DNA of 64,000 nt from Escherichia phage vB_EcoM_PhAPEC2. The position numbers and the translations under genes are program-made. This document shows positions 22,034 to 32,943 of this stretch, one piece after another (position 1 is the stretch's first letter; the number at the start of each line of letters is the position of its first letter). Under the pieces are notes generated by a model, which was not told the DNA's origin, ran no database searches, and saw only the letters and a list, made by a program, of their open reading frames with translations. Location: the sequence record NC_024794.1; one strand, written 5' to 3'.

Positions 22034-22375
22034 TTAAAAGAATTTAAATTTTTTCTTGGTTCGTTCATTAAAAGCTTGTTGTACTTGCATTGTAACACAT
22101 TTTTCAACATGTGGTGCAAGTTCTGCTTTTCTGTCCTGGTCAAGAACTGCAAAGTCCATTACGATTTTACCATCAACCCAGTCTAGTTTTGTAATATAGA
22201 CTATATGATGGGAACCGTCTTCAAGTGTAATCAGAATCTCTTGAATGACATTTTCCATTGCTGAACGGATAATTTTAAGAGATTCATTAAACACTCGTTC
22301 TTTGCGAATGTCTTCCCCTTCCGAAGAAGGGGATTCATCAACGATTTCTAGATTTAAATCATCGAGATTATTCAT
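22034..22375 (-). CDS. 40: hypothetical protein at gene 40 position
   Basis: track ORF 22034..22396; likely start at internal ATG overlapping the uvsX stop; synteny only. Confidence 0.45.
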   Translation of the reverse strand: MNNLDDLNLEIVDESPSSEGEDIRKERVFNESLKIIRSAMENVIQEILITLEDGSHHIVYITKLDWVDGKIVMDFAVLDQDRKAELAPHVEKCVTMQVQQAFNERTKKKFKFF

Positions 22376-23540
22376 CGAAATCTTCCATTTCGTCAAGGTC
22401 GTTTTCTATATCTGCTGCAGACGGAGCATCAGAAGTTTTAACCGGAACTTTAGTTGTTGCTTTGCAATTAATAAGGTCGTTAACAGCGTCATCAACTTCT
22501 TTAATAGAAGAGATAGCACCTAGTTTATATTTAGTTTCAATTGCATCTCGGAAAGGTTTGTGTTTAAACAAAGGTCCCCAGAATTCTACACAATCAGTAG
22601 CTTTAGCACGCCACGATTTCTCTTCACGAATCATTTCGCCTGTTTCTTCGTCAAGGAATTCACGAGCATACCAGCCGGCTTTAGGCTTAACAACAAATCC
22701 AATTTCAGTTGCCATTTCTAACAAGCCACTGAATGGGTCGATACCACCATCAAAATTAACTGTGATTGGGAAAGTAGATTTTTCTTTAACTGTACGAGAT
22801 TTTTCTGCTTTCAACGTGAAGTCATAACCGGTCAATTCTGTACCTTCTTTAACCTGACGTTTAGAGATAAAGAATACAGTGTTAGCAGAGTAAAGAATAC
22901 CTGTACCACCACCCATAATCTCTTTAGGATACAATCCGCCAATTTCCATTGCGGTATGGTTAATTGCAACACACGGAATATCTTTAATAGTCAGATACGG
23001 GGTCACAATGCGGAACAGAGATTTAAGTGCCTTAGCACGAGACATATCACCTACAACTTTCTCGTTCAATGCATCTTCGGTTTCTTTCTTAGATGCAGTA
23101 TTACCGATTGAATCGATAAAGATAATAACTTTATCACCGCGTTCAATAGCGTCAAGCTGATTAGTCATATCAACTTTAAGTTGTTCGACAGATTGAATCG
23201 GAGTATGAACTACACGGTCTAAATCAACACCCATTGAACGAAAATAAGATTCCGAAGCACCGAATTCTGAGTCATAAAACAAACAGATTGCATCTTTATA
23301 TTTCTTCATATACGCTGCAACCATAGTCAGCCCAAACAACGTTTTAAAGTGTTTAGAAGGAGCAGCAAAAATAGTTAAGCCTGATTGCAATCCTGCATTC
23401 AGAGCACCACCTAGTGCAATATTCAACATCGGAATACGAGTAGGGACTTCATCACGATTATTAAACAGCTTAGACTTAGTCAAGTCTGCAGTCATTTTAG
23501 AAGTAGAAGCTTTAATCAGACGAGATTTTAAATCAGACAT
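22368..23540 (-). CDS. uvsX: UvsX recombinase (RecA-like)
   Basis: 390 aa; N-terminus MSDLKSRLIKASTSK; RecA core motifs. Confidence 0.92.
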   Translation of the reverse strand: MSDLKSRLIKASTSKMTADLTKSKLFNNRDEVPTRIPMLNIALGGALNAGLQSGLTIFAAPSKHFKTLFGLTMVAAYMKKYKDAICLFYDSEFGASESYFRSMGVDLDRVVHTPIQSVEQLKVDMTNQLDAIERGDKVIIFIDSIGNTASKKETEDALNEKVVGDMSRAKALKSLFRIVTPYLTIKDIPCVAINHTAMEIGGLYPKEIMGGGTGILYSANTVFFISKRQVKEGTELTGYDFTLKAEKSRTVKEKSTFPITVNFDGGIDPFSGLLEMATEIGFVVKPKAGWYAREFLDEETGEMIREEKSWRAKATDCVEFWGPLFKHKPFRDAIETKYKLGAISSIKEVDDAVNDLINCKATTKVPVKTSDAPSAADIENDLDEMEDFDE

Positions 23541-23638: not shown

Positions 23639-24187
23639 TTAACGGGCCCATTTGATGATTTCTGTAATCAAACCATTACGTTCGCTTGCATTAAATCCTA
23701 TAACTTTGTTAGCACCATCATGATTAAGTAATTGATACGTTTGGATTTTGTTATGAATTGCAAACTCTTCAAAATGTGAAATGACTGTATTAAAACCGAA
23801 TGAAGACAAAGTAATAAGGTCGTCTTCAAAACTTTCAGTCATTTCGTTACGTGTTAAAATAATTGTGAACACATCATGGTTTTGGCAAAGACGAACATAA
23901 TCCTGCTCATAAACATCAAGAACAGAGTCCGCATCTTGTCGAATACGTCCATAAACCCAGTTACTAATATATCCACGGTCTAACAGATAAATCTTAGTAG
24001 GGTCTAAATAATTCAACATCGTTTCGAAACAGCCAACTTCATTTCGAGACTTAACATCGAAACGTCCATCAACTGTTCGTTTAGGGAAATCAATCTTTAC
24101 ATATCTTTCACTAATTTCCATTATGTCATTAATGAAAGTTGTTTTACCGGCATTATCCGGGCCATCTACTAAAATAATTTTAGCCAT
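23639..24187 (-). CDS. P-loop kinase (NMP-kinase fold)
   Basis: 182 aa; Walker A GPDNAGKTT, LLDRGY motif; occupies the slot where T4 has beta-glucosyltransferase. Confidence 0.5.
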   Translation of the reverse strand: MAKIILVDGPDNAGKTTFINDIMEISERYVKIDFPKRTVDGRFDVKSRNEVGCFETMLNYLDPTKIYLLDRGYISNWVYGRIRQDADSVLDVYEQDYVRLCQNHDVFTIILTRNEMTESFEDDLITLSSFGFNTVISHFEEFAIHNKIQTYQLLNHDGANKVIGFNASERNGLITEIIKWAR

Positions 24188-24188
24188 T

Positions 24189-25091
24189 TTATTCCTCGAT
24201 TACGACATCTTCGTATTTAGGTATATTATACGGTGAAGAAATTAAAGCATTAAAGTAGATGAACTCACCAAGACCTGGATGGAATACTTCTTCAGGATTT
24301 TCGAAATATTGAATCTTCGGACGTCCTTTAAGAATTTGATAGTACTCAGTTTTAGTTGGATTAAAAATTCGAATCAGCGCTTCTTCAGGATACTTATTTC
24401 TGTCGAAACTATTATTTGGATCAGTTATATAAAGCGGTTGACCTAATTGAATTGCGCATTCAACAACTTGTTCAAAACGATAGCATGGGTCACTAATTCG
24501 AAATGGATGAAAAATACCATCTAGATGAATAGGAGCCAAATCACCTACAAGACGCTGCATGATGGAAGGACGTATAACTTTCTGAGTTACGATAATCTTA
24601 TTACCATCTGCACCTGCGTTAACCAGCACTTCTTTTTGACGTTCATTCAACACAGTAGTTTGAAGTGAACGATTAACTGACAACATATCGGTTTTTAAGA
24701 ATTCGTCAATATAAAAACGTGGTTTATTAGGGTCTGCCGTGATATTGAAATTGAATTCTACATCAAAAGCGCCGTCATATCCAGTGATATCTGTTATTAG
24801 AAAATCACAATCATAATAAGCAATTAATGAATCAACCACAAATTCATTTTCAGACCAGAAATATTTACGAGTGTTATACGCGTTATCTTTATACCATAAT
24901 GGAACAAACTTAAATTCCGGGAAAAGACGTTCACATTCTTTAATATCAGATGCATTACGTGGATATGTAATCACATCACCTGGATTAGCACGGTGCAAAT
25001 GAAGTTGGAAGTTGCCATCCTTAAGGATAGCATACTGTCCAGTTTCATAAGACCGCATACTCAAAATAGGTACGCGGAATTTATTAGCCAT
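24189..25091 (-). CDS. hypothetical protein (300 aa) in the beta-gt slot
   Basis: TAATG-coupled to gene 42; no motif recognised. Confidence 0.5.
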   Translation of the reverse strand: MANKFRVPILSMRSYETGQYAILKDGNFQLHLHRANPGDVITYPRNASDIKECERLFPEFKFVPLWYKDNAYNTRKYFWSENEFVVDSLIAYYDCDFLITDITGYDGAFDVEFNFNITADPNKPRFYIDEFLKTDMLSVNRSLQTTVLNERQKEVLVNAGADGNKIIVTQKVIRPSIMQRLVGDLAPIHLDGIFHPFRISDPCYRFEQVVECAIQLGQPLYITDPNNSFDRNKYPEEALIRIFNPTKTEYYQILKGRPKIQYFENPEEVFHPGLGEFIYFNALISSPYNIPKYEDVVIEE

Positions 25092-25807
25092 TAGTCAAGA
25101 AATCCTTTAACATAATCAAAATCACGTTCAAACACATGGGCACTTACCATGGTATGAGTATAATCACCAACTTCTACACCGCATTCGTTAGCGATATAAT
25201 GAAGTAATTTTCCTTGGAGATAAAAATCCAACTGCATAACAACAGCACAGTTCTGAGAACGCATATGGCAGTGGGTATAAAGCTTACCATCGCGAATATA
25301 ATAAGTCACTGAGTCAGTACATGGATATTCAAGCGTTTCGTCCGAATCAAGCAAAGCCTGATCAGAACTTTCTAGAATTTGGAACACAACTCTTCGAGAG
25401 TTAGGCTTCTCTTTAAGTTCTTTTAGAAGAGCTGGTAATTGGGCCGCAATGCGAGGACCGTAGAAAGTGTTGAAGTTCGCAGGCAAAACATCTGATTTAG
25501 GTTTAGAAATAAATTTAGCGACATTAGGATATGCCTTAAATGCTTCTTCTGCATCAGTACCACCAGAAATCATAAACTTCCAGAAGTCTTCGGCATATTC
25601 ATAAGAGATGCGGTTAATACGTGGGTCGGTCATTTTGAATGATGATGGAGTGTCAACAACTACTGTCATAGACCCAATTTCATTACAACGTCCAATACGA
25701 GAATCAGTTACGAATTCCGGGTTTTCTAAAATTTCACGATTGACTGCTTTAAATGCGGCTTGAAAATCTGCGGCTTTGATATATTTCATTGTGTTATGTT
25801 TTCCCAT
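25091..25807 (-). CDS. 42: dCMP hydroxymethylase (thymidylate-synthase fold)
   Basis: 238 aa; CTDSVTYYIRDGKLYTHCHMRSQN and AHVFERD align to remembered T4 gp42 (CTNTVQYLIRD...NMRSND, LHVYSRH). Confidence 0.85.
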   Translation of the reverse strand: MGKHNTMKYIKAADFQAAFKAVNREILENPEFVTDSRIGRCNEIGSMTVVVDTPSSFKMTDPRINRISYEYAEDFWKFMISGGTDAEEAFKAYPNVAKFISKPKSDVLPANFNTFYGPRIAAQLPALLKELKEKPNSRRVVFQILESSDQALLDSDETLEYPCTDSVTYYIRDGKLYTHCHMRSQNCAVVMQLDFYLQGKLLHYIANECGVEVGDYTHTMVSAHVFERDFDYVKGFLD

Positions 25808-25849: not shown

Positions 25850-26089
25850 TTATTTGAATTTCTTGGCAATGTTGATATAACGTAAAGCTTCAGAATCTAT
25901 ACTTCCAAGAACACTATGAAGGAATGCATCAGTGTAGTATTCCAATTGAACAGGTTCTTTAATCACTTTAGCCGCTTTGGTTTCAAACAGGCCCATAAGG
26001 GCCTTTTTAAGAATTTGTTCGTTAGTGTTCAGTTTAATAGTCAAAATCTCTTCATTAAGTTTATAATTAAAAGTTTTTCTAGAAATCAT
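25850..26089 (-). CDS. hypothetical protein
   Basis: 79 aa; ATGA-coupled to downstream gene. Confidence 0.45.
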   Translation of the reverse strand: MISRKTFNYKLNEEILTIKLNTNEQILKKALMGLFETKAAKVIKEPVQLEYYTDAFLHSVLGSIDSEALRYINIAKKFK

Positions 26090-27261
26090 TCCGGGTACCT
26101 CAAAGCGTCATCAGAGTTAGTTATATCAATAATAGATATGGAGTTTTCTGCTAACCCGTTTTTAGATAATTGACGTTTATAATACCTTTCACAATATGTA
26201 CACGTTGACCCACAGATTTCATTAGCACAATCAAAATCTGGATGTCTGAACCACCTTTTTTCTAAAAAGCCATCTAACAAAGAGGTTTCAATATTTACTG
26301 TATGTGAAAACTCAGTCTCATTTTCAAGAGTGAAAATAGTCTCTAAAGGCTTCCACAGTTCTAACAAATTACCTTCAAACTTTTCAGAAGCGTATGCTTC
26401 AAGAACTTTCAAAATGTAGTCTGTGCTACCTGTACGTCCTGAAACTTTGAATTGAGTGATACCAATATCATTATAAAGTTTCAAATCTTGTGGACGAACA
26501 AAACGAGTTCTCAACCAGTTAAATGGGTCTGTATCACGAGCTTTAATACAGTGCTGCATTGGATATCCGTTTAAGGATTTAGCATCATCAGCTGTAACAT
26601 CAGTACTATGGAAAATATAGCAAGAGTCACGATAGCTACAATGTGTTGTATACCCTTTACCAGCATTAGAACAGAACTCATTTACAAGAACTTCAAATAT
26701 TATATTGTTCTTATTGCAAAACTCTGCTGCACGCTTCAGGAAAGAAACTGAACGGTTCTTATGAATTCCGCAACAGACCTTTTTGATATTATATTGGTCA
26801 TGCAAGTATTTGATTTGAGTTACAGCATCGACATGTAGAATTGTTGAAACTTCAATCTCAATGTCTTTATTGACTTCACGAACAATTTCCATAACAACAG
26901 GGTTAGCGATAGTAATACGCCATACACCTATTGACCAAAGATACTGAACATAATCCTGAATAGCTTTCTTCTTCCACTCAACTAGTTCTCTTTTTGAACC
27001 AGGATTTATCGTGTTGAGTGTATAGTTAAAGCAAATACCTAATTCGTTACAACGTTTAACGTAATCTTCTAACATCTTTTTGTCAACGTCAGGAAGCCTA
27101 AAATCAGGTCTGGCTGCTACAAAAGCCATTTCTCTTGTAGAGCCGTATACTTCGTTTATCAAGCTATTAGGATAAGTTTTATTGAGCTCTACGATTTTAT
27201 CAAGAAGAGCTAAATCAAAATTCGTTCCAATTTTAAAAGTATTCATTTTTTTGCATCTCAC
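26086..27261 (-). CDS. U32-family-like protein (putative Fe-S enzyme)
   Basis: 391 aa; cysteine cluster EFCSNAGKGYTTHCSYRDSC and KVSGRTGS resembling the U32 KIEGR signature; assignment from motif memory. Confidence 0.45.
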   Translation of the reverse strand: MRCKKMNTFKIGTNFDLALLDKIVELNKTYPNSLINEVYGSTREMAFVAARPDFRLPDVDKKMLEDYVKRCNELGICFNYTLNTINPGSKRELVEWKKKAIQDYVQYLWSIGVWRITIANPVVMEIVREVNKDIEIEVSTILHVDAVTQIKYLHDQYNIKKVCCGIHKNRSVSFLKRAAEFCNKNNIIFEVLVNEFCSNAGKGYTTHCSYRDSCYIFHSTDVTADDAKSLNGYPMQHCIKARDTDPFNWLRTRFVRPQDLKLYNDIGITQFKVSGRTGSTDYILKVLEAYASEKFEGNLLELWKPLETIFTLENETEFSHTVNIETSLLDGFLEKRWFRHPDFDCANEICGSTCTYCERYYKRQLSKNGLAENSISIIDITNSDDALRYPE

Positions 27262-27302: not shown

Positions 27303-27689
27303 TTATAGATTCGGTTTATATGATTTAAATGTTTCGAATTCGCCTTTATTCATAAGAGCTTTGAATTCGTCAGGACGCATAGCTTTGTCGTCGATAATCC
27401 AATCATATACTGGTTTATGTGTTAGCAAATTATGGTACTTCAAGCCAATGTTTGCCAAGTTCTGAATCAGACTTGGGAGAATGTCAATTGCTATACGACC
27501 AGGACCTACTGACTTCATACCGCGAGCAGTGTAAAGCGTTATGGTATGCCCTGCATCATACAGGGCATTAATGGCAGACACCATTTCGACGTCTGGTTTG
27601 AAGTTCACGTAATCACGATTGTTATTCCACTCTGTTATACAATCATCGACATCAAAACAAAGATTAAGCATGTTTTCTACACGGTGCAT
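27303..27689 (-). CDS. small HAD-superfamily phosphatase
   Basis: track ORF 27303..27704; HAD motif I FDVDDCIT near N-terminus, later IIDDKA; start probably overlaps upstream stop. Confidence 0.55.
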   Translation of the reverse strand: MHRVENMLNLCFDVDDCITEWNNNRDYVNFKPDVEMVSAINALYDAGHTITLYTARGMKSVGPGRIAIDILPSLIQNLANIGLKYHNLLTHKPVYDWIIDDKAMRPDEFKALMNKGEFETFKSYKPNL

Positions 27690-29374
27690 TAGATTCGTTC
27701 CCATTGATGAGTGATATCGCCACCGATTGGACGATAAGAAACACCAGTTTCTTTATCAGTTAGTACCCATTTACCAGGATTTTTTGTAATCAGAGTAGCC
27801 GTTACAGGTTCTGCTACGTCATAACTAATAGAGCCGTCCTGAAGTACACGGCCCATGTTACGTAATTGCTTAGTCAGAAGTTCCATACCTTTATAATATG
27901 CGGCTACCGCTTTAAGTGGATTATTCTTGAAATAACCACCTAATGCAATCCAGATAATTGCCACAGCCAAATGATGATACTCGTTAAACGAACTCATCTT
28001 TCCATATTTGTAAACTAATGGATTGATGTTAATAGTCACATTACAAGTTGTTTCATCAATAGTAAACTGTCCCCAGGTCGGATTAGCGTTGAATTCATCA
28101 TAACCTGAAACAGCATAAAGCACTTTAGCTTCATCGTACAATTTTGGCCCGTAAATCTTGGTTTCGCCAAAATATCCACGAGGGTCGATAAACTTGACTT
28201 CGCCGTTATCAGTAATCATAGTATTACTGAAGTTAGGGTCACCATGAATAACAGAGTACTGTCCCTGAGAACGGTTATGATAACGAATAAGGTGTTCTAA
28301 AGCTTGTTTCAGCATTGGCTTCAGACGCCCAATCTTAGTGTAGTTCACATGGGTGATTTTACCAAATGAATCAATCAATGGTTGAATGCTTTCACAACGA
28401 TCAATAACTTTCGTATAGAATTCTTTAGTGAAATCACGACGAACAGTTTCAGGACTTACAAAATAAGTGTCTGTGCTGAATTTCAGTGCATCTAAAATTG
28501 CATCAACAATTTGTGGACGAGCAAGACTTGATTTGGATTTAATATATTCAAATGCCGGCTTACCTTTAATGCGTTCCATTTCAAAGTTATTTTCATTAAC
28601 AGAAACTAACTGAGGAACTGAATCTGATTTCACTTTAAGATACCATGAAATCTCATCTTTCTGAAGAGCTCGACCCTGTTCGGTTAATGCGAATTTAGTT
28701 ACAGTTTCTTCACCAATTTCAACTGCATTAAAACTACGATTAAGTTCACGAACTTCATGAGCTTTTTCAAGTTTAGGCATATCACCTAAATCAATTAGAT
28801 TCATAAGCTCTGATTTATTGAATGCGCTGCCGTAAAGGAATTCTACGAAATCACGTCCTTTGCAGTATTCATGAATTTCCTCATCGGTAGAACCCATATA
28901 GAATTCCCAGTCTTTGAACTGATAAATTCCTACAACATTACCACCTGTTGAACCTACGTTAGTGATATTTTCACCGTCGAAATTATATCGACATTCGTCA
29001 CCCTTAACATAGATTGCGTTAACATTCCAAGACCATGAACCAAAATCGGGAATAATATCACACCAGTTAACAATTACATTATGACCGTCTAAATCTTTGT
29101 GTAATTTAGCAAGAGCATAAGCAGAACCGTACGCTTCATCAACTGTACGAATAGTCACATTGAACCCTTCTTGCTCACAATAAGCTCGAACAGTTTCAGC
29201 AAATTTTGAATGAACTACTACAATAATTTCATCTGCGCCAAGGTCAGAATAAATTGTATACAAATTGCTCAGAATAGTGTCTTGTTTATAGTTAACAAGC
29301 ACCTTAGGAATATGATGCGTTATTGGATATAAACGAGTTGCCAATCCAGCACCAAGAATAACAGCTTTTTTCAT
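27689..29374 (-). CDS. bifunctional sugar-1-phosphate nucleotidyltransferase (RmlA-like) / APH-like sugar kinase
   Basis: 561 aa; N-terminal ILGAGLATRLYPIT (G-x-G-T-R-L-x-P-x-T signature); C-terminal HGDPNFSNTMI (Brenner HGD...N kinase loop). Confidence 0.7.
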   Translation of the reverse strand: MKKAVILGAGLATRLYPITHHIPKVLVNYKQDTILSNLYTIYSDLGADEIIVVVHSKFAETVRAYCEQEGFNVTIRTVDEAYGSAYALAKLHKDLDGHNVIVNWCDIIPDFGSWSWNVNAIYVKGDECRYNFDGENITNVGSTGGNVVGIYQFKDWEFYMGSTDEEIHEYCKGRDFVEFLYGSAFNKSELMNLIDLGDMPKLEKAHEVRELNRSFNAVEIGEETVTKFALTEQGRALQKDEISWYLKVKSDSVPQLVSVNENNFEMERIKGKPAFEYIKSKSSLARPQIVDAILDALKFSTDTYFVSPETVRRDFTKEFYTKVIDRCESIQPLIDSFGKITHVNYTKIGRLKPMLKQALEHLIRYHNRSQGQYSVIHGDPNFSNTMITDNGEVKFIDPRGYFGETKIYGPKLYDEAKVLYAVSGYDEFNANPTWGQFTIDETTCNVTININPLVYKYGKMSSFNEYHHLAVAIIWIALGGYFKNNPLKAVAAYYKGMELLTKQLRNMGRVLQDGSISYDVAEPVTATLITKNPGKWVLTDKETGVSYRPIGGDITHQWERI

Positions 29375-29404
29375 GTTGAAGTCCTCATTGGTAAGTAGGA
29401 GTAT

Positions 29405-29433
29405 TGTACACTATTCTAGTTAAAGCATTCATA
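29405..29433 (-). promoter_or_regulatory. MotA-type middle promoter for the nucleotidyltransferase/kinase gene
   Basis: minus strand AATGCTTTA, 12 nt, TACAAT, about 25 nt before the SD. Confidence 0.45.
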
Positions 29434-29559
29434 CTTTGCTTGTAGTCCAATCATAATCCATCCAATTACAAGTGTTGGAATCATTACTGGAGCCGTTAAG
29501 CTCCAGTAGATAGTCATGACAAGCATCAATAGTAAAAGTCCTATTGTTATTGCTTTCAT
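29416..29559 (-). CDS. small membrane peptide
   Basis: 47-aa hydrophobic ORF not in track; ATGA-coupled to the isomerase stop. Confidence 0.35.
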   Translation of the reverse strand: MKAITIGLLLLMLVMTIYWSLTAPVMIPTLVIGWIMIGLQAKYECFN

Positions 29560-30191
29560 TGTTCGCCTCGTAACATGGCACCTAGTGCACCGCCCGGGTG
29601 GAACTTAAGGAAATCATTAGAGGTAAATCCACGCTCAGACGAAAGGTTGATAGCGAACGTATCGATAAGCGCTAACAACAATGTAGTAGACATTGTCGGA
29701 GCTAAAGAGTTCTCGTCAACTTCTACCGCGATACCGGTACAGAACGTATAATCAAAAAGAGCTTCGTATTCTTGTGGAATGTCAGGGTTACAATGTAACA
29801 GAATCTGTTTAACCTGAGGACGAATCATACGAAGATGCTTAGCCACGCCTATCATTTCTTCAGTTTTACCAGAACGACTAATATGAATCAACACATCATT
29901 AGGCGCAATGAATCCTGCATCACCGTGAGAATAATGCCCAGTGTTCAAGTACATACTAGGGATACCGAGTGAAGCAAATGTCTCAGAAGCTTTAGTTGCA
30001 ATATTAGCATTCTTACCAACACCTGTAATAATTACTCGGCTTTCATAATTACTAAGTCCCGGGCGTCGAAGAGTTTCTAGAATAGCGTTATAACGAGCAG
30101 GGTTTTGACTAATTACTTTGGCCATAGCGGCCAAAGAAGAAGCTTGTTTTATGATTGCGTCAATAGCGATAGTAATAGGAGTAGTTTTCAT
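29556..30191 (-). CDS. SIS-domain sugar-phosphate isomerase, KdsD/GutQ-like arabinose-5-phosphate isomerase without CBS domains
   Basis: 211 aa; GVGKNANIATKASETFASLGIPS, HGDAG, ISRSG, LAPTMSTT, RGFTSNDF, HPGGALG all parallel E. coli KdsD SIS domain. Confidence 0.75.
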   Translation of the reverse strand: MKTTPITIAIDAIIKQASSLAAMAKVISQNPARYNAILETLRRPGLSNYESRVIITGVGKNANIATKASETFASLGIPSMYLNTGHYSHGDAGFIAPNDVLIHISRSGKTEEMIGVAKHLRMIRPQVKQILLHCNPDIPQEYEALFDYTFCTGIAVEVDENSLAPTMSTTLLLALIDTFAINLSSERGFTSNDFLKFHPGGALGAMLRGEQ

Positions 30192-30231: not shown

Positions 30232-32943
30232 TCAAAAATCGAACATATCGAACAGAGATGCTTTCTTCTCGTAATCGAGTTTCGCTGCTGATGTGAATCC
30301 TTCAAGTGGTTTAATAAATGTCTTCTCAAGGAGAACAGTGTAGTCCATCCAATGAAGTACATCGTCTTTAATTAAATCTGTGATTTCAGTACCAGAAGGC
30401 CATGCGATACATTTATCACCGAATGGGTTTCCTTCGCGTAAAGGCAGAACATATACTTTTTCACCTTCTACAACTTGCGGTGCATCGATATTACCTTTGA
30501 TAGCTCGGTTATATGTCAGAATTCCACGAATATGGAACGGGCATTTGGGACCAGGGAATCCACCAACGTCATATTTAGCAATGTTATTCGCAGAAGATAC
30601 CGACGCGATGCTAATATAATTCAATTGATGGAATTCTTTTTCAAACTCTTTAAAATATTCTTGTAATGATTCTTCACCTTCTTGAAGCATACGACGAATA
30701 CATTCTTTAAGAGCTTTCTGAACCGCTTTAGGTGTACTTGATTTCTGAGTCTCTAGACCCATGATTTTGAGTTTAGGCTCAGCGTAACGAGTACCTTCCA
30801 TATCCCACACGTTTAATGCATAACGTTTCTTACCGGTCCAGAATCCACCAATACCTTTAGAACCGAGCGGAGGCCCAGCGATAGCTTCTCGGTCCATGAA
30901 CATTAAGTGTTGTTTATTGTTCATGTATTCACACATTTCACGGAAACCTCTATCAATAGCTGGTTCCATACGTTCACGTGCAAACTTATCTAAGAAGTCT
31001 ACCCAATGGTTAGTATCACGGAATTTAGATTCACCAACCTTATCAATAATTTTATCTGCAGATACATAAATGGAGTCTGTATCACCATAAAGAACGAAAG
31101 CTTCACCTTCCGTACCGCAAACTTCATTCAGATATTCATTAACTTTACGTTCAATCCACTGTAAAGCCATTTGCCCGAATGTTGTGATTGCAGTTGCATT
31201 GCGCAAATCGTAATAACGGAACCAAACGTTTCCAAGTGCACCATAAAGCGAGTTGATGAGCAATTTACGGTTAATCTGTGCAGTCATACCTGCAACTTCA
31301 GTACGTTGAGCTCTAAACAACATTTCATTAAGAGATTTAGCAGACAACTTTTTAATCTTTTCTTTAATCTCATCACTGAAGTCGAAACGATAATCAACAT
31401 CTAATGGTTCGTCAACAGAAAGATTAGGATTATGCAATGCCTCTTTAATTATTTCACCATTACGTTGAGCTGCAAGCATGTAACCTTTATGTTCTTTACG
31501 TTGATTAAAGACTTTAGTGATTTCGGTTGGAACTACACCATCACGGTCTTTATAATACATCATGCCGTTAGGAGAGCAACTGTACACATCTGAAGGACGT
31601 TCAGCGATTGCGTTAATATAATCATGCAATGGAGCTACTTTAAACGTTCCTGCTATTGTTTCTGGGCTAATATTCACTTGGCGAATAATACTTGGATACA
31701 GAGATGTAAGGTCGAAACTCATTACATATTTGTATCGATTTGGAATAGGTTCCTTAACAAAAGCGCCAGGATAAGGTTGAACCGGGTGAGAACGACCTTG
31801 TGGAATCACCTTGTTCTGCTCTTTAAGGCTATTAAAAATAATAGCATCCCATGTTTTAATTGGGCTAAACACAGATTGAATCTGTATCTTAGCATAATAA
31901 CCCATGTCCAAACTCAAGTTGATGAACTGACGCTTAGCATCAATTTGCAATACACGATACACGTCGATAATGTTATAAGAAATATATCGTTGGTGATTGC
32001 TTTCACGAAGTTTAGAAATAGGGCCGTCATATTTCAGTTTACCAACGTTCAATTCAAATTCTGAAATGTAATCCAGAGAATAGGACGGTTGATTGGTAAA
32101 AGAGAATTTTTTGTAAAGGTCAATGTAATCAAGAACAGAGATACCGAACAATGTAATGATTTCACGAGAACCATACATGTTTTCGATAACTTTAACACGA
32201 GTTTTACGATGAGGTGATAAACGTTTCGCAGTAGATTCGCCAAAAATATTCTTGATTCGGTTATACACATATGGAATATCAAATGACTCAACGTTCCATC
32301 CAGTCAAAATGACAGGAGTTTTCTGTTGCCAGAAGTTGAGATATTCCATCAATAATTCTTTTTCATTATCAAACGGCATATAAACGATTTTGTCGATAAT
32401 TTCGGATGGAACTTCATCACCACCTTGTTCTTGAAGCTTAGCCGCAATTTCGATAGACCATTCTTCTACATTACCATATGGAGAATTCAATAGATCAAAT
32501 ACGTAGAACCTGTCGTCAATTGAGTCATAATGGGTGATAGCATCAATAGGATGTTTTGCTTGTGACGGCTCAGGGAACCCGTCCGGAGATGTTACTTCGA
32601 TGTCGAAGTTAGCCACACGAATTTTTGTATGGTCGTATTTGATTTCATAGTTATAAGTGTCAGACAAATACGCCAATTTAAAATCGTCCATGCCAAGTGC
32701 TTCAAGTCCGATATCTTCCATGCGTTTAATCCATTGGGAGGCATCACGCATATTAGCGAACAACTTACGAGCACACGGTTTACCGTAGATATCGAAATAT
32801 TTCGTAGCCTGACTTTCTGGACAATGAGCAAACAGTGATGGTTTATATTCTACTTCACGAGTACGTTCACGGCCATTAGAATCGATGTAACGTTCAAAAA
32901 TTGAATCACCAATCTGTTCAACCGTTAAGTAAAATTCTTTCAT
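30232..32943 (-). CDS. 43: DNA polymerase (family B) with 3'-5' exonuclease
   Basis: 903 aa; matches remembered RB69 gp43 almost residue for residue (FDIPYVY, YGDTDS). Confidence 0.97.
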   Translation of the reverse strand: MKEFYLTVEQIGDSIFERYIDSNGRERTREVEYKPSLFAHCPESQATKYFDIYGKPCARKLFANMRDASQWIKRMEDIGLEALGMDDFKLAYLSDTYNYEIKYDHTKIRVANFDIEVTSPDGFPEPSQAKHPIDAITHYDSIDDRFYVFDLLNSPYGNVEEWSIEIAAKLQEQGGDEVPSEIIDKIVYMPFDNEKELLMEYLNFWQQKTPVILTGWNVESFDIPYVYNRIKNIFGESTAKRLSPHRKTRVKVIENMYGSREIITLFGISVLDYIDLYKKFSFTNQPSYSLDYISEFELNVGKLKYDGPISKLRESNHQRYISYNIIDVYRVLQIDAKRQFINLSLDMGYYAKIQIQSVFSPIKTWDAIIFNSLKEQNKVIPQGRSHPVQPYPGAFVKEPIPNRYKYVMSFDLTSLYPSIIRQVNISPETIAGTFKVAPLHDYINAIAERPSDVYSCSPNGMMYYKDRDGVVPTEITKVFNQRKEHKGYMLAAQRNGEIIKEALHNPNLSVDEPLDVDYRFDFSDEIKEKIKKLSAKSLNEMLFRAQRTEVAGMTAQINRKLLINSLYGALGNVWFRYYDLRNATAITTFGQMALQWIERKVNEYLNEVCGTEGEAFVLYGDTDSIYVSADKIIDKVGESKFRDTNHWVDFLDKFARERMEPAIDRGFREMCEYMNNKQHLMFMDREAIAGPPLGSKGIGGFWTGKKRYALNVWDMEGTRYAEPKLKIMGLETQKSSTPKAVQKALKECIRRMLQEGEESLQEYFKEFEKEFHQLNYISIASVSSANNIAKYDVGGFPGPKCPFHIRGILTYNRAIKGNIDAPQVVEGEKVYVLPLREGNPFGDKCIAWPSGTEITDLIKDDVLHWMDYTVLLEKTFIKPLEGFTSAAKLDYEKKASLFDMFDF

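What the first reader, a model, noticed from the sequence alone, without database searches (positions are those of the whole stretch)
27689..29374. Fusion of RmlA-like nucleotidyltransferase with an APH-like sugar kinase
The N-terminus carries the sugar-1-phosphate nucleotidyltransferase signature (ILGAGLATRLYPIT) and the C-terminus the HGDxxxxN catalytic loop of APH/anomeric sugar kinases (HGDPNFSNTMI). One polypeptide could take a sugar to sugar-1-P and on to NDP-sugar, as AmgK/MurU do as separate proteins. Nucleotide specificity is not predictable from the sequence.
Basis: partly seen in the sequence, partly recalled or inferred. Interest (0 to 1): 0.75.

Follow-up and report, generated by a model that had tools for sequence, protein, structure and literature searches.

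The report
Known phage UDP-arabinose synthesis enzyme
This gene encodes a real two-domain enzyme (sugar kinase plus nucleotidyltransferase) that RB69-like phages use to make the activated arabinose they attach to their DNA cytosines, but it has already been described and, in a near-identical phage, biochemically characterised.

Summary

It is not new. The window is a Mosigvirus (RB69-like phage). The protein is 99.6% identical to RB69 ORF53_52c/gp52:53, proposed for UDP-arabinose synthesis in 2018 and described in 2026 as the counterpart of phage HY126 AfhE. [quoted passage not shown]

The reported route is Ru5P → Ara5P (neighbouring SIS isomerase) → Araf-1,5-P2 (kinase domain) → Araf-1-P (neighbouring HAD phosphatase AfhF) → UDP-Araf (nucleotidyltransferase domain) → arabinosyl-5-hydroxycytosine DNA.

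The two activities are not consecutive, however: the logic resembles HldE/GmhB in ADP-heptose synthesis rather than AmgK/MurU salvage of a free sugar. PDB 9iqw and 9iqc match the window's HAD and ThyA-like proteins almost exactly, so the characterised system is probably near-identical. Already known; low interest.

The parts
27689..29374 (-). Whole gene: 561-aa bifunctional enzyme (AfhE counterpart, equivalent to RB69 ORF53_52c/gp52:53)
   Evidence: ORF. Full-length match to phrog_4098, E 3.7e-295. 99.6% identical to RB69 and 99.3-99.5% to Bas46/Bas47. Exact sequence present in JS09, p000y and other Mosigvirus phages.
28760..29374 (-). N-terminal sugar-1-phosphate nucleotidyltransferase domain (about residues 1-205)
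29318..29359 (-). ILGAGLATRLYPIT: the G-x-G-x-x-R NTP-binding signature (residues 6-19), followed by PK at 23-24
   Evidence: Coordinates. G10, R14 and K24 are invariant in 37 homologues.
29048..29065 (-). WCDIIP (residues 104-109), with invariant W104 and D106; presumed metal-binding Asp of the nucleotidyltransferase
   Evidence: Invariant columns; alignment block. The catalytic role is inferred from the RmlA family.
27854..28741 (-). C-terminal protein-kinase-like (choline kinase/APH-type) sugar kinase domain (about residues 212-507)
28694..28696 (-). K227, the invariant ATP-binding lysine of the kinase N-lobe (partner E241 at 28652..28654)
   Evidence: Invariant. Assignment inferred from the fold: strand 224-229, then helix 232-247.
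28214..28246 (-). HGDPNFSNTMI: the HGDxxxxN catalytic loop (residues 377-387)
   Evidence: H377, G378, D379, S383 and N384 are invariant.
28175..28189 (-). IDPRG (residues 396-400): Mg-binding Asp (DFG equivalent) followed by an invariant Arg
   Evidence: I396, D397, P398, R399 and G400 are invariant. A role for R399 in binding the sugar 5-phosphate is my speculation.
27692..27853 (-). C-terminal tail of about 54 residues, lower model confidence, specific to the phage clade
   Evidence: Block pLDDT 50-87. Present in homologues of about 36% identity or more and absent from more distant ones. Function unknown.
27303..27704 (-). HAD-type phosphatase (counterpart of AfhF and RB69 gp51); start overlaps the fusion gene's stop
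   Evidence: PDB 9iqw is 100% identical over residues 5-133. TIGR01689 capsule biosynthesis phosphatase, E 4e-13. phrog_1238. The sequence 'atc TAATG cac' overlaps stop and start at 27687..27691.
29556..30191 (-). SIS-domain arabinose-5-phosphate isomerase (RB69 gp55 counterpart)
   Evidence: Pfam SIS, E 4.8e-10. KpsF/GutQ E 5e-32 and KdsD E 2e-30. PDB 3etn, E 6.8e-25. 207 of 211 residues identical to RB69 gp55.
29403..29427 (-). Candidate T4-type middle promoter (MotA box TGCTTTA, 12 nt, TACAAT), 29 nt upstream of the ATG
   Evidence: The pattern occurs 19 times in the window against 3.6 expected; 0 of 100 shuffles reach 19. Sequence. The consensus is recalled from T4 literature and function is untested.
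25091..25807 (-). ThyA-homologue 5-hydroxy-dCMP synthase (RB69 gp48 counterpart), which supplies the acceptor base
   Evidence: Pfam Thymidylat_synt, E 2.4e-15. 236 of 238 residues identical to RB69 gp48, which was shown experimentally to make 5hodC. PDB 9iqc, 9ir2 and 9iqu are near-identical.
24189..25091 (-). 300-aa putative first DNA arabinosyltransferase (RB69 gp46:47 counterpart), the consumer of the NDP-arabinose
   Evidence: Syntenic with RB69 p047 and p046. Role taken from Lee et al. 2026. No Pfam, NCBIfam or PDB sequence hit here.

Best explanation
The gene encodes the Mosigvirus counterpart of AfhE (equivalent to RB69 gp52:53). It is a bifunctional enzyme of the phage pathway that makes UDP-D-arabinofuranose for arabinosylating 5-hydroxycytosine in phage DNA.

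Proposed route:
1. Host ribulose-5-P is isomerised to D-arabinose-5-P by the upstream SIS isomerase.
2. The C-terminal protein-kinase-like domain uses ATP to phosphorylate O1 of Araf-5-P, giving Araf-1,5-bisphosphate.
3. The translationally coupled downstream HAD phosphatase (AfhF counterpart) removes the 5-phosphate, giving Araf-1-P.
4. The N-terminal RmlA/MurU-like domain condenses Araf-1-P with UTP, giving UDP-Araf and PPi.
5. GT-B arabinosyltransferases in the same cluster transfer arabinose onto 5-hydroxycytosine, which the cluster's ThyA homologue makes at the dCMP level.

Basis of each part: the domain folds, catalytic residues, orthology to RB69 and gene context are shown here. The order of steps, Ara5P as the kinase substrate and UTP specificity are taken from the literature on HY126 AfhE/AfhF, reported second-hand by Lee et al. 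2026. That phosphorylating Ara5P rather than free arabinose locks the furanose ring without needing a mutase is my inference.
For: - Intact 561-aa ORF with both motifs.
- Two-domain AF2 model, pLDDT 92.5.
- Both catalytic residue sets are invariant across 37 homologues down to 29% identity.
- 99.6% identical to RB69 ORF052c+053c. The only frame difference is the extra C that Thomas et al. 2018 showed to be a sequencing error.
- 99.3-99.5% identical to Bas46/Bas47, 57% to DLP3 gp82, 54% to Maestro and Thanatos, 52% to Serratia 92A1. All are phages reported to carry arabinosylated or pentosylated 5-hydroxycytosine.
- Lee et al. [quoted passage not shown]
- PDB 9iqw is 100% identical to the window's HAD protein. 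PDB 9iqc, 9ir2 and 9iqu are near-identical to its ThyA homologue. This implies the structurally and biochemically studied phage is near-identical to this one.
- The linkage SIS, NT-kinase, HAD, ThyA-like, GT, Tmk-like is conserved in RB69 and Bas47. A similar module occurs in a distant 159-kb phage-like contig whose protein is 35% identical.
- Rosetta-stone fusions HAD-SIS-NT-kinase occur in single polypeptides of about 900-950 aa.
- The Thanatos orthologue TH1_060 is essential and can be complemented in trans.
- RB69 DNA carries D-arabinofuranose by NMR, and DLP3 glycosyltransferases use UDP-Araf in vitro.
Against: - No enzymatic assay of this exact protein or of RB69 gp52:53 was found in the papers I could read. 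Thomas 2018 only over-expressed it, and Lee 2026 analysed it computationally.
- The primary AfhE paper (He et al. 2026) and Mahler et al. 2025 are not held. The HY126 AfhE sequence could not be retrieved, so orthology to AfhE is indirect.
- Table 1 of Lee et al. still lists the alternative order (phosphatase Ara5P to Ara; kinase Ara to Araf1P), which conflicts with their own text.
- Purified Thanatos TH1_060 showed no pyrophosphorylase activity on xylose-1-P with ATP, CTP, GTP, UTP or dTTP. That sugar is non-cognate, so the result is only weakly negative.
- The kinase domain falls below Pfam gathering thresholds by sequence.
Confidence: 0.82

Rival explanations
1. Salvage-type order, as the first reader proposed and as Table 1 of Lee et al. 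lists. The HAD phosphatase first converts Ara5P to free D-arabinose. The kinase domain then phosphorylates free arabinose at C1. The nucleotidyltransferase domain immediately converts Ara-1-P to NDP-Ara. The two fused activities would then be consecutive, as with AmgK and MurU.
For: The same three enzymes and gene context fit this order. The structural relatives of the kinase domain (glucosamine kinase, maltokinase, APH, choline kinase) act on non-phosphorylated substrates. Table 1 of Lee et al. 2026 annotates gp51 as 'dephosphorylates Araf5p to Ara' and the C-terminal domain as 'phosphorylates Ara to Araf1p'.
Against: The text of Lee et al., citing the HY126 biochemistry, says AfhE phosphorylates Araf5P to Araf1,5P and AfhF dephosphorylates the bisphosphate. 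By my inference, free D-arabinose is mainly pyranose in solution, so this order would not obviously give the furanose found in the DNA without a mutase, and none is evident in the cluster. Lee et al. report their HAD structural hits as a heptose-1,7-bisphosphate 7-phosphatase.
Confidence: 0.12
2. The N-terminal GT-A-like domain is itself a glycosyltransferase that puts the pentose on DNA or a nucleotide, as Thomas et al. 2018 first considered for ORF053c and as the Thanatos study proposed for TH1_060. The C-terminal phosphotransferase would have an accessory role.
For: [quoted passage not shown] TH1_060 is essential and no in vitro pyrophosphorylase activity was found.
Against: The top structural and sequence matches are all nucleotidyltransferases, not glycosyltransferases. 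The invariant G-x-G-x-x-R...K signature is the NTP-binding motif of sugar-1-P nucleotidyltransferases. Separate GT-B arabinosyltransferases are encoded in the cluster, and DLP3 gp76/77 transfer arabinose from UDP-Araf. TH1_060 did not transfer xylose from UDP-xylose to DNA, dCMP, dCTP or cytosine.
Confidence: 0.03
3. A LicA/LicC-type enzyme that phosphorylates and nucleotide-activates a non-sugar alcohol (for example choline to CDP-choline), unrelated to the DNA modification.
Against: Identity to those proteins is only 11-20%. The gene is embedded, and translationally coupled, in a module with an arabinose-5-P isomerase, a sugar-phosphate phosphatase, the 5hodCMP synthase and glycosyltransferases. 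The DNA of these phages carries arabinose. Covalent fusions to SIS sugar-phosphate isomerase domains exist.
Confidence: 0.02

Closest known systems
AfhE of Escherichia phage HY126 (He et al., Nat Chem Biol 2026, as reported in Lee et al. NAR 2026), equivalent to RB69 ORF53_52c/gp52:53, DLP3 gp82 and Thanatos TH1_060
   Same: Same two-domain architecture (N-terminal nucleotidyltransferase, C-terminal kinase). Same neighbours (arabinose-5-P isomerase, AfhF-type HAD phosphatase, 5hodCMP synthase, arabinosyltransferases). 99.6% identical to RB69, 57% to DLP3 gp82 and 54% to TH1_060.
   Different: Essentially nothing: 28 nucleotide substitutions relative to RB69 and an intact reading frame. The HY126 sequence itself could not be compared. 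Near-identity is inferred from PDB 9iqw and 9iqc.
HldE with GmhA and GmhB (ADP-L-glycero-beta-D-manno-heptose pathway), and HddA/GmhB/HddC (GDP-heptose); established knowledge, recalled
   Same: Same pathway logic: a SIS isomerase makes an aldose phosphate, an anomeric kinase makes a bisphosphate, a HAD phosphatase removes the distal phosphate, and a nucleotidyltransferase makes the NDP-sugar. In HldE, as here, one polypeptide carries the non-consecutive kinase and nucleotidyltransferase steps. HddC is the best profile hit of the N-terminal domain in the PDB (E 5.5e-14).
   Different: The HldE kinase is a ribokinase/PfkB-family enzyme and its transferase is a cytidylyltransferase-like (HIGH-motif) fold. 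Neither is homologous to the domains here. The sugar is a heptose rather than a pentose, the carrier is ADP or GDP rather than UDP, and the product goes to LPS or capsule rather than DNA.
   Different: They are separate proteins. The substrate is a free sugar and the two steps are consecutive with no phosphatase between them. Identity is 15-17%. The NCBIfam MurU models score far below their cutoffs (24.8 bits against 250).
LicA / LicC (choline kinase and CTP:phosphocholine cytidylyltransferase, S. pneumoniae)
   Different: The substrate is not a sugar, the nucleotide is CTP, and identity is low (11-20%). The genomic context is unrelated.
FKP-type bifunctional kinase/pyrophosphorylases (Bacteroides fragilis L-fucokinase/GDP-fucose pyrophosphorylase; Leishmania D-arabinokinase/GDP-D-arabinopyranose pyrophosphorylase); recalled from memory, not tested here
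   Same: One polypeptide combines an NDP-sugar pyrophosphorylase domain with an anomeric kinase domain. The Leishmania enzyme also activates D-arabinose.
   Different: The kinase belongs to the GHMP family, not the protein-kinase-like fold. The substrate is a free pyranose sugar, the carrier is GDP, and the steps are consecutive.

Membership tests
AfhE / RB69 gp52:53 family (phage bifunctional Ara5P 1-kinase / UDP-Araf pyrophosphorylase; phrog_4098) | Single polypeptide of about 550-565 aa with an N-terminal nucleotidyltransferase and a C-terminal protein-kinase-like domain | tested here: met
AfhE / RB69 gp52:53 family | Close sequence relationship to named members (RB69 gp52:53, DLP3 gp82, Bas46/47, 92A1, Maestro, Thanatos) | tested here: met
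   99.6%, 57%, 99.3-99.5%, 52%, 54% and 54% identity respectively, over 100% of the length. The DNA comparison with RB69 shows only the known single-base error.
AfhE / RB69 gp52:53 family | Sequence identity to the biochemically characterised HY126 AfhE itself | tested here: inconclusive
   The HY126 sequence and the primary paper were not available, and no PDB entry exists for this protein. Indirect support: PDB 9iqw (HAD) is 100% identical and 9iqc, 9iqu and 9ir2 (ThyA homologue) near-identical to the window's neighbouring proteins. Attribution of those entries to HY126 is my inference.
AfhE / RB69 gp52:53 family | Genomic linkage to an arabinose-5-P isomerase, an AfhF-type HAD phosphatase, a 5hodCMP synthase and DNA arabinosyltransferase(s) | tested here: met
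   for the individual genes. Synteny with Bas47 and RB69. Residue identities.
AfhE / RB69 gp52:53 family | ATP-dependent phosphorylation of Ara5P at C1, and UTP-dependent formation of UDP-Araf from Araf-1-P | not testable with these tools
   This needs enzymology. It is reported for HY126 AfhE, second-hand.
Sugar-1-phosphate nucleotidyltransferases (Pfam PF00483 NTP_transferase; RmlA/GalU/MurU/LicC fold) | Score above the Pfam gathering threshold | tested here: met
   39.1 bits against a cutoff of 21.2, but only residues 3-99 align to profile positions 1-101 of 245.
Sugar-1-phosphate nucleotidyltransferases | G-x-G-x-x-R(x)nK NTP-binding signature, a conserved acidic metal ligand, and the full Rossmann-like alpha/beta fold | tested here: met
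   G8, G10, R14, K24 and D106 are conserved or invariant. About 190-210 residues superpose on LicC, RmlA and MurU at 2.3-3.0 A.
Sugar-1-phosphate nucleotidyltransferases | Membership of a specific equivalog (RmlA, GalU, GlmU, MurU, HddC) | tested here: not met
   All NCBIfam equivalog scores are far below their cutoffs, for example MurU 24.8 against 250, rmlA_long 25.7 against 320, HddC 22.1 against 300. It is a distinct subfamily, not an RmlA or a MurU.
APH / choline-kinase / protein-kinase-like phosphotransferases (Pfam PF01636 and relatives) | Score above the Pfam gathering threshold | tested here: not met
   APH 14.4 bits against 23.2, Fructosamin_kin 17.1 against 22.4, EcKL 16.2 against 22. 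Some homologues do carry precomputed PF01636 hits.
APH / choline-kinase / protein-kinase-like phosphotransferases | Bilobal kinase fold with the beta3 Lys, alphaC Glu, H-x-D-x-x-x-x-N catalytic loop and a Mg-binding Asp | tested here: met

The most novel reading that the evidence does not exclude
Beyond its two published activities, the enzyme may be the scaffold of a substrate-channelling assembly. Its 54-residue C-terminal tail is specific to the phage clade. The tail is absent from distant homologues, and in giant-virus-like relatives the HAD and SIS domains are instead covalently fused to the NT-kinase unit. The tail could dock the translationally coupled AfhF phosphatase, and perhaps the isomerase, so that Araf-1,5-P2 and Araf-1-P pass between the non-consecutive active sites without entering the host pool. 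The single-polypeptide HAD-SIS-NT-kinase versions on contigs carrying Rpb2 and MutS+HNH genes would also imply NDP-arabinofuranose synthesis by viruses of eukaryotes.
Probability: 0.12. Interest if true: 0.4.

Novelty: already known. Interest (0 to 1): 0.12.

Why it matters
The enzyme supplies the activated D-arabinofuranose that Mosigvirus and many other Straboviridae phages attach to 5-hydroxycytosine. That hypermodification blocks many restriction enzymes and alters sensitivity to CRISPR and type IV systems, so it matters for phage therapy, phage engineering and enzymatic synthesis of UDP-Araf. All of this has been published (Thomas 2018; Mahler 2025; Lee 2026; He 2026). For the scan, the value is mainly corrective:
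- Most database records still call this protein 'hypothetical', 'GlmU' or 'nucleotidyl transferase'.
- The neighbouring phosphatase is mislabelled 'phosphoheptose isomerase'.
- The RB69 reference record still splits the gene in two.

Tried and rejected
1. I tried to read the primary AfhE papers (He et al. 2026 Nat Chem Biol; Mahler et al. 2025 Cell Host Microbe). Neither is held, and text searches for AfhE, HY126 and arabinofuranosylation found only citing papers. The supplements of Lee et al. are not held.
2. I tried to find HY126 among phage records and cluster members. It was not seen in the 60-row spread listing or in the 15 members listed per cluster, so orthology to AfhE rests on Lee et al.'s statement and on the PDB identities.
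3. Sequence searches of the PDB for the kinase half gave only weak RIO2 hits (E 0.06) even with a 37-sequence profile. Only the fold comparison resolved it.
4. I considered a glycosyltransferase role and a LicA/LicC-like role, and rejected both on motifs, structural neighbours and context (see rivals).
5. I compared the window's HAD protein with the HAD domain of the four-domain fusion P0092 and found no detectable similarity. The fusion therefore uses a different HAD subfamily, and this Rosetta-stone argument is functional, not homologous, for that step.
6. I assumed homologues at 30-35% identity were cellular. The two I examined were viral: a phage-like contig and a giant-virus-like contig.
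7. I could not inspect active-site geometry because the model coordinates are not exposed to scripts. The proposed role of R399 remains speculation.
Full report
**1. Observation**

Window 27689..29374 on the minus strand is an intact ATG-initiated ORF of 561 aa and 63.86 kDa. ILGAGLATRLYPIT is residues 6-19 (window 29318..29359) and HGDPNFSNTMI is residues 377-387 (window 28214..28246). A GAGG Shine-Dalgarno sequence precedes the ATG.

Pfam places NTP_transferase on residues 3-99 (E 8.5e-10, above the gathering score). It gives only sub-threshold APH, fructosamine-kinase, EcKL and RIO hits around residues 308-409. By sequence alone, then, the kinase half is suggestive rather than established.

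**2. Structure and conservation**

I aligned 37 homologues spanning 29-75% identity (alignment A1) and predicted the structure from that alignment. The model has mean pLDDT 92.5 and pTM 0.89.

- **Other searches.** Foldseek agrees for the N-terminal domain. A profile search of PDB sequences puts HddC, a heptose-1-phosphate guanylyltransferase, first at E 5.5e-14.

The invariant columns are the expected catalytic residues. In the transferase they are G10, R14, K24 and D106. In the kinase they are K227, E241, H377-G378-D379, N384 and D397, the last followed by an invariant P398-R399-G400.

Residues 508-561 form a lower-confidence tail. The tail is present only in the phage clade, in homologues of about 36% identity or more.

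**3. Source and prior description**

The surrounding 7.2 kb is 98-98.6% identical to many Escherichia Mosigvirus genomes. The gene lies between DNA polymerase gp43 and uvsX.

The protein is:
- 100% identical to proteins of phages ST0, PHB12 and JS09, among others;
- 99.6% identical to RB69 ORF052c+053c;
- 99.3-99.5% identical to Bas46/Bas47, where it is annotated 'putative enzyme involved in UDP-arabinose biosynthesis';
- 57% identical to DLP3 gp82, 54% to Maestro and Thanatos TH1_060, and 52% to Serratia phage 92A1.

At the DNA level the window gene differs from the RB69 GenBank record by 28 substitutions and one extra C in RB69 at codon ~218, the domain boundary. Thomas et al. 2018 showed by resequencing that this C is an error, and they merged ORF053c and ORF052c into a 561-residue, 63.9-kDa ORF53_52c. 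They proposed it, together with the SIS protein ORF055c, as a candidate for UDP-arabinose synthesis (PMC6024577).

Lee et al. 2026 (PMC13326640) re-determined the RB69 modification as beta-D-Araf-(1,3)-alpha-D-Araf-5-hydroxy-dC. They showed that the ThyA homologue gp48 makes 5-hydroxy-dCMP. They modelled gp52:53 as an N-terminal MurU-like transferase plus a C-terminal APH-like kinase, and equated it with AfhE of coliphage HY126. Citing He et al. 2026 and Mahler et al. [quoted passage not shown] They describe AfhF, the HAD protein, as the Mg-dependent phosphatase that converts Araf-1,5-P2 to Araf-1-P.

**4. Link to the characterised system**

I could not read He et al. or retrieve the HY126 sequence. 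Searching the neighbouring proteins against the PDB gave an indirect link.

- Entry 9iqw ('Capsule biosynthesis protein', 134 aa) is 100% identical to the window's HAD protein over residues 5-133.
- Entries 9iqc, 9ir2 and 9iqu ('Thymidylate synthase', 238 aa) are essentially identical to the window's ThyA homologue (538 bits over 238 residues).

The codes are adjacent, and Lee et al. mention a HY126 crystal structure of the flavin-containing ThyA homologue. Both points suggest that these entries come from the HY126 study, so HY126 would be a Mosigvirus nearly identical to this window. That attribution is my inference. There is no PDB entry for the 561-aa protein itself.

**5. Context and mechanism**

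The cluster, read on the minus strand, is:

| Gene | Window coordinates | Key evidence |
|---|---|---|
| DNA polymerase | 30232..32943 | |
| SIS arabinose-5-P isomerase | 29556..30191 | KpsF/GutQ E 5e-32; PDB 3etn E 7e-25 |
| 47-aa hydrophobic ORF | 29416..29559 | |
| The fusion gene | 27689..29374 | sections 1-3 |
| HAD phosphatase | 27303..27704 | |
| U32-like protein | 26086..27261 | |
| 79-aa ORF | 25850..26089 | |
| 5hodCMP synthase | 25091..25807 | 236 of 238 residues identical to RB69 gp48 |
| 300-aa putative arabinosyltransferase | 24189..25091 | |
| Tmk-like protein | 23639..24187 | |
| uvsX | 22368..23540 | |

The fusion gene's stop codon overlaps an ATG of the phosphatase gene (atc-TAATG-cac). 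That ATG is the Met at which the 9iqw construct begins, which suggests translational coupling of the two enzymes.

The most likely mechanism is the published one: Ru5P to Ara5P (isomerase), to Araf-1,5-P2 (kinase domain, ATP), to Araf-1-P (HAD phosphatase), to UDP-Araf (transferase domain, UTP), to DNA (GT-B transferases).

I add one inference. Phosphorylating Ara5P, which can only cyclise as a furanose, fixes the ring form that ends up in the DNA and removes any need for a pyranose-furanose mutase. This would explain why the pathway passes through a bisphosphate.

The logic is that of the ADP/GDP-heptose pathway (GmhA, HldE or HddA, GmhB, HldE or HddC), built from non-homologous kinase and transferase folds.

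**6. Independent support and caveats**

Support:
- The module recurs in a 159-kb phage-like metagenomic contig whose NT-kinase is only 35% identical. The order there is SIS, then further genes, NT-kinase, HAD, ThyA-like, EndoIV-like, a 380-aa protein and a Tmk-like protein.
- Proteins of about 900-950 aa fuse HAD, SIS, NT and kinase in one chain. In P0092 the SIS part is 31% identical to the window's isomerase (E 2e-24) and the NT-kinase part is 34% identical (E 3e-74).
- The Thanatos orthologue is essential and can be complemented in trans (PMC12838424).

Caveats:
- The exact protein has not, in anything I could read, been assayed.
- Table 1 of Lee et al. still shows the alternative order (Ara5P to Ara to Araf1P).
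- Thanatos TH1_060 was inactive on xylose-1-P with five NTPs.
- Knowledge of the AfhE biochemistry is second-hand.

**7. Verdict**

It is wrong about the directness of the two-step conversion, and it is out of date on nucleotide specificity and novelty. This is an already known enzyme (AfhE / RB69 gp52:53 family), so interest is low.

What remains unexplained is the phage-clade-specific C-terminal tail, and how the bisphosphate intermediate is handed between the fused enzyme and the separate phosphatase. The role of the U32-like gene in the cluster is also unexplained, as is the purpose of the four-domain versions in giant-virus-like contigs.

Noticed in passing
window 27303..27704 (-) and 25091..25807 (-): PDB 9iqw ('Capsule biosynthesis protein') is 100% identical to the HAD phosphatase. 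PDB 9iqc, 9ir2 and 9iqu ('Thymidylate synthase') are near-identical to the ThyA-like 5hodCMP synthase. Solved structures of this exact cluster's proteins therefore exist under uninformative names. No entry exists for the 561-aa protein, the isomerase or the 300-aa GT.
   Followed up: partly
window 27687..27691 (-): The stop codon of the fusion gene overlaps an ATG of the phosphatase gene (TAATG). The longer 133-aa ORF starting at 27704 overlaps it by 16 nt. The PDB construct and the RB69 annotation use the shorter 128-aa form. This suggests translational coupling of enzymes that act alternately in the pathway.
   Followed up: partly
window 27692..27853 (-): The 54-residue C-terminal tail of the fusion protein has lower model confidence. 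It is conserved only in the phage clade and absent from homologues below about 35% identity. No function has been assigned to it.
   Followed up: partly
window 29403..29427 (-); also 24225..24249 (-) and 28097..28122 (-): T4 middle-promoter-like motifs (MotA box TGCTTNA, 11-13 nt, TANNNT) occur 19 times in the window against 3.6 expected by shuffling. One lies 29 nt upstream of the fusion gene's ATG and one lies upstream of the Tmk-like gene. The consensus is recalled from memory and function is untested.
   Followed up: partly
window 29416..29559 (-): A 47-aa, strongly hydrophobic ORF (MKAITIGLLLLMLVMTIYWSL...) sits between the isomerase and the fusion gene, overlapping the isomerase stop. 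Bas47 annotates it as hypothetical. RB69 annotates a shorter ORF054c there.
   Followed up: no
window 26086..27261 (-): A peptidase-U32-like protein (391 aa; Pfam E 7e-11; weak UbiU-like hit) is conserved inside the arabinosylation cluster. Its role is unknown. Lee et al. guess 'sugar or heterocycle reductase'. UbiU-type U32 proteins are O2-independent hydroxylases (recalled), so a link to cytosine hydroxylation is conceivable but untested.
   Followed up: no
L002 8001..10781 (GCA_013558355.1 JACCDH010973257.1), also L003 and L004: A 926-aa single polypeptide fuses HAD, SIS, NT and kinase domains (35% identical to the window protein). It lies among Rpb2, RNA_pol_N, MutS+HNH and Autophagy_act_C genes, a giant-virus-like context, with no ThyA homologue within 8 kb. 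A similar 955-aa protein occurs in a eukaryote transcriptome (P0091).
   Followed up: partly
L005 4618..13513 (ERZ27248503 k141_930792, 159-kb contig): A distant uncultivated phage carries the same module: SIS, then further genes, NT-kinase, HAD (Hydrolase_3), ThyA-like, EndoIV-like, a 380-aa protein and a Tmk-like protein. A flavodoxin-like gene lies next to the SIS gene. This suggests the arabinosyl-5hoC type of system extends well beyond the named Straboviridae.
   Followed up: no
window 24189..25091 (-) compared with L008 10784..11684: The 300-aa putative arabinosyltransferase is intact in the window but split into RB69 p047 and p046 by a one-base difference, with a further 3-nt indel near the start. 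This matches the second RB69 sequencing error noted by Lee et al.. The Thanatos homologue TH1_063 was reported, oddly, to act as a UDP-xylose pyrophosphorylase.
   Followed up: partly
database annotations of window 27303..29374: Public records variously name the fusion protein 'GlmU', 'mannose-1-phosphate guanyltransferase', 'guanylyltransferase' or 'hypothetical'. The HAD phosphatase is named 'phosphoheptose isomerase' (PHROG 1238, RB69 RefSeq). These labels are misleading.
   Followed up: yes
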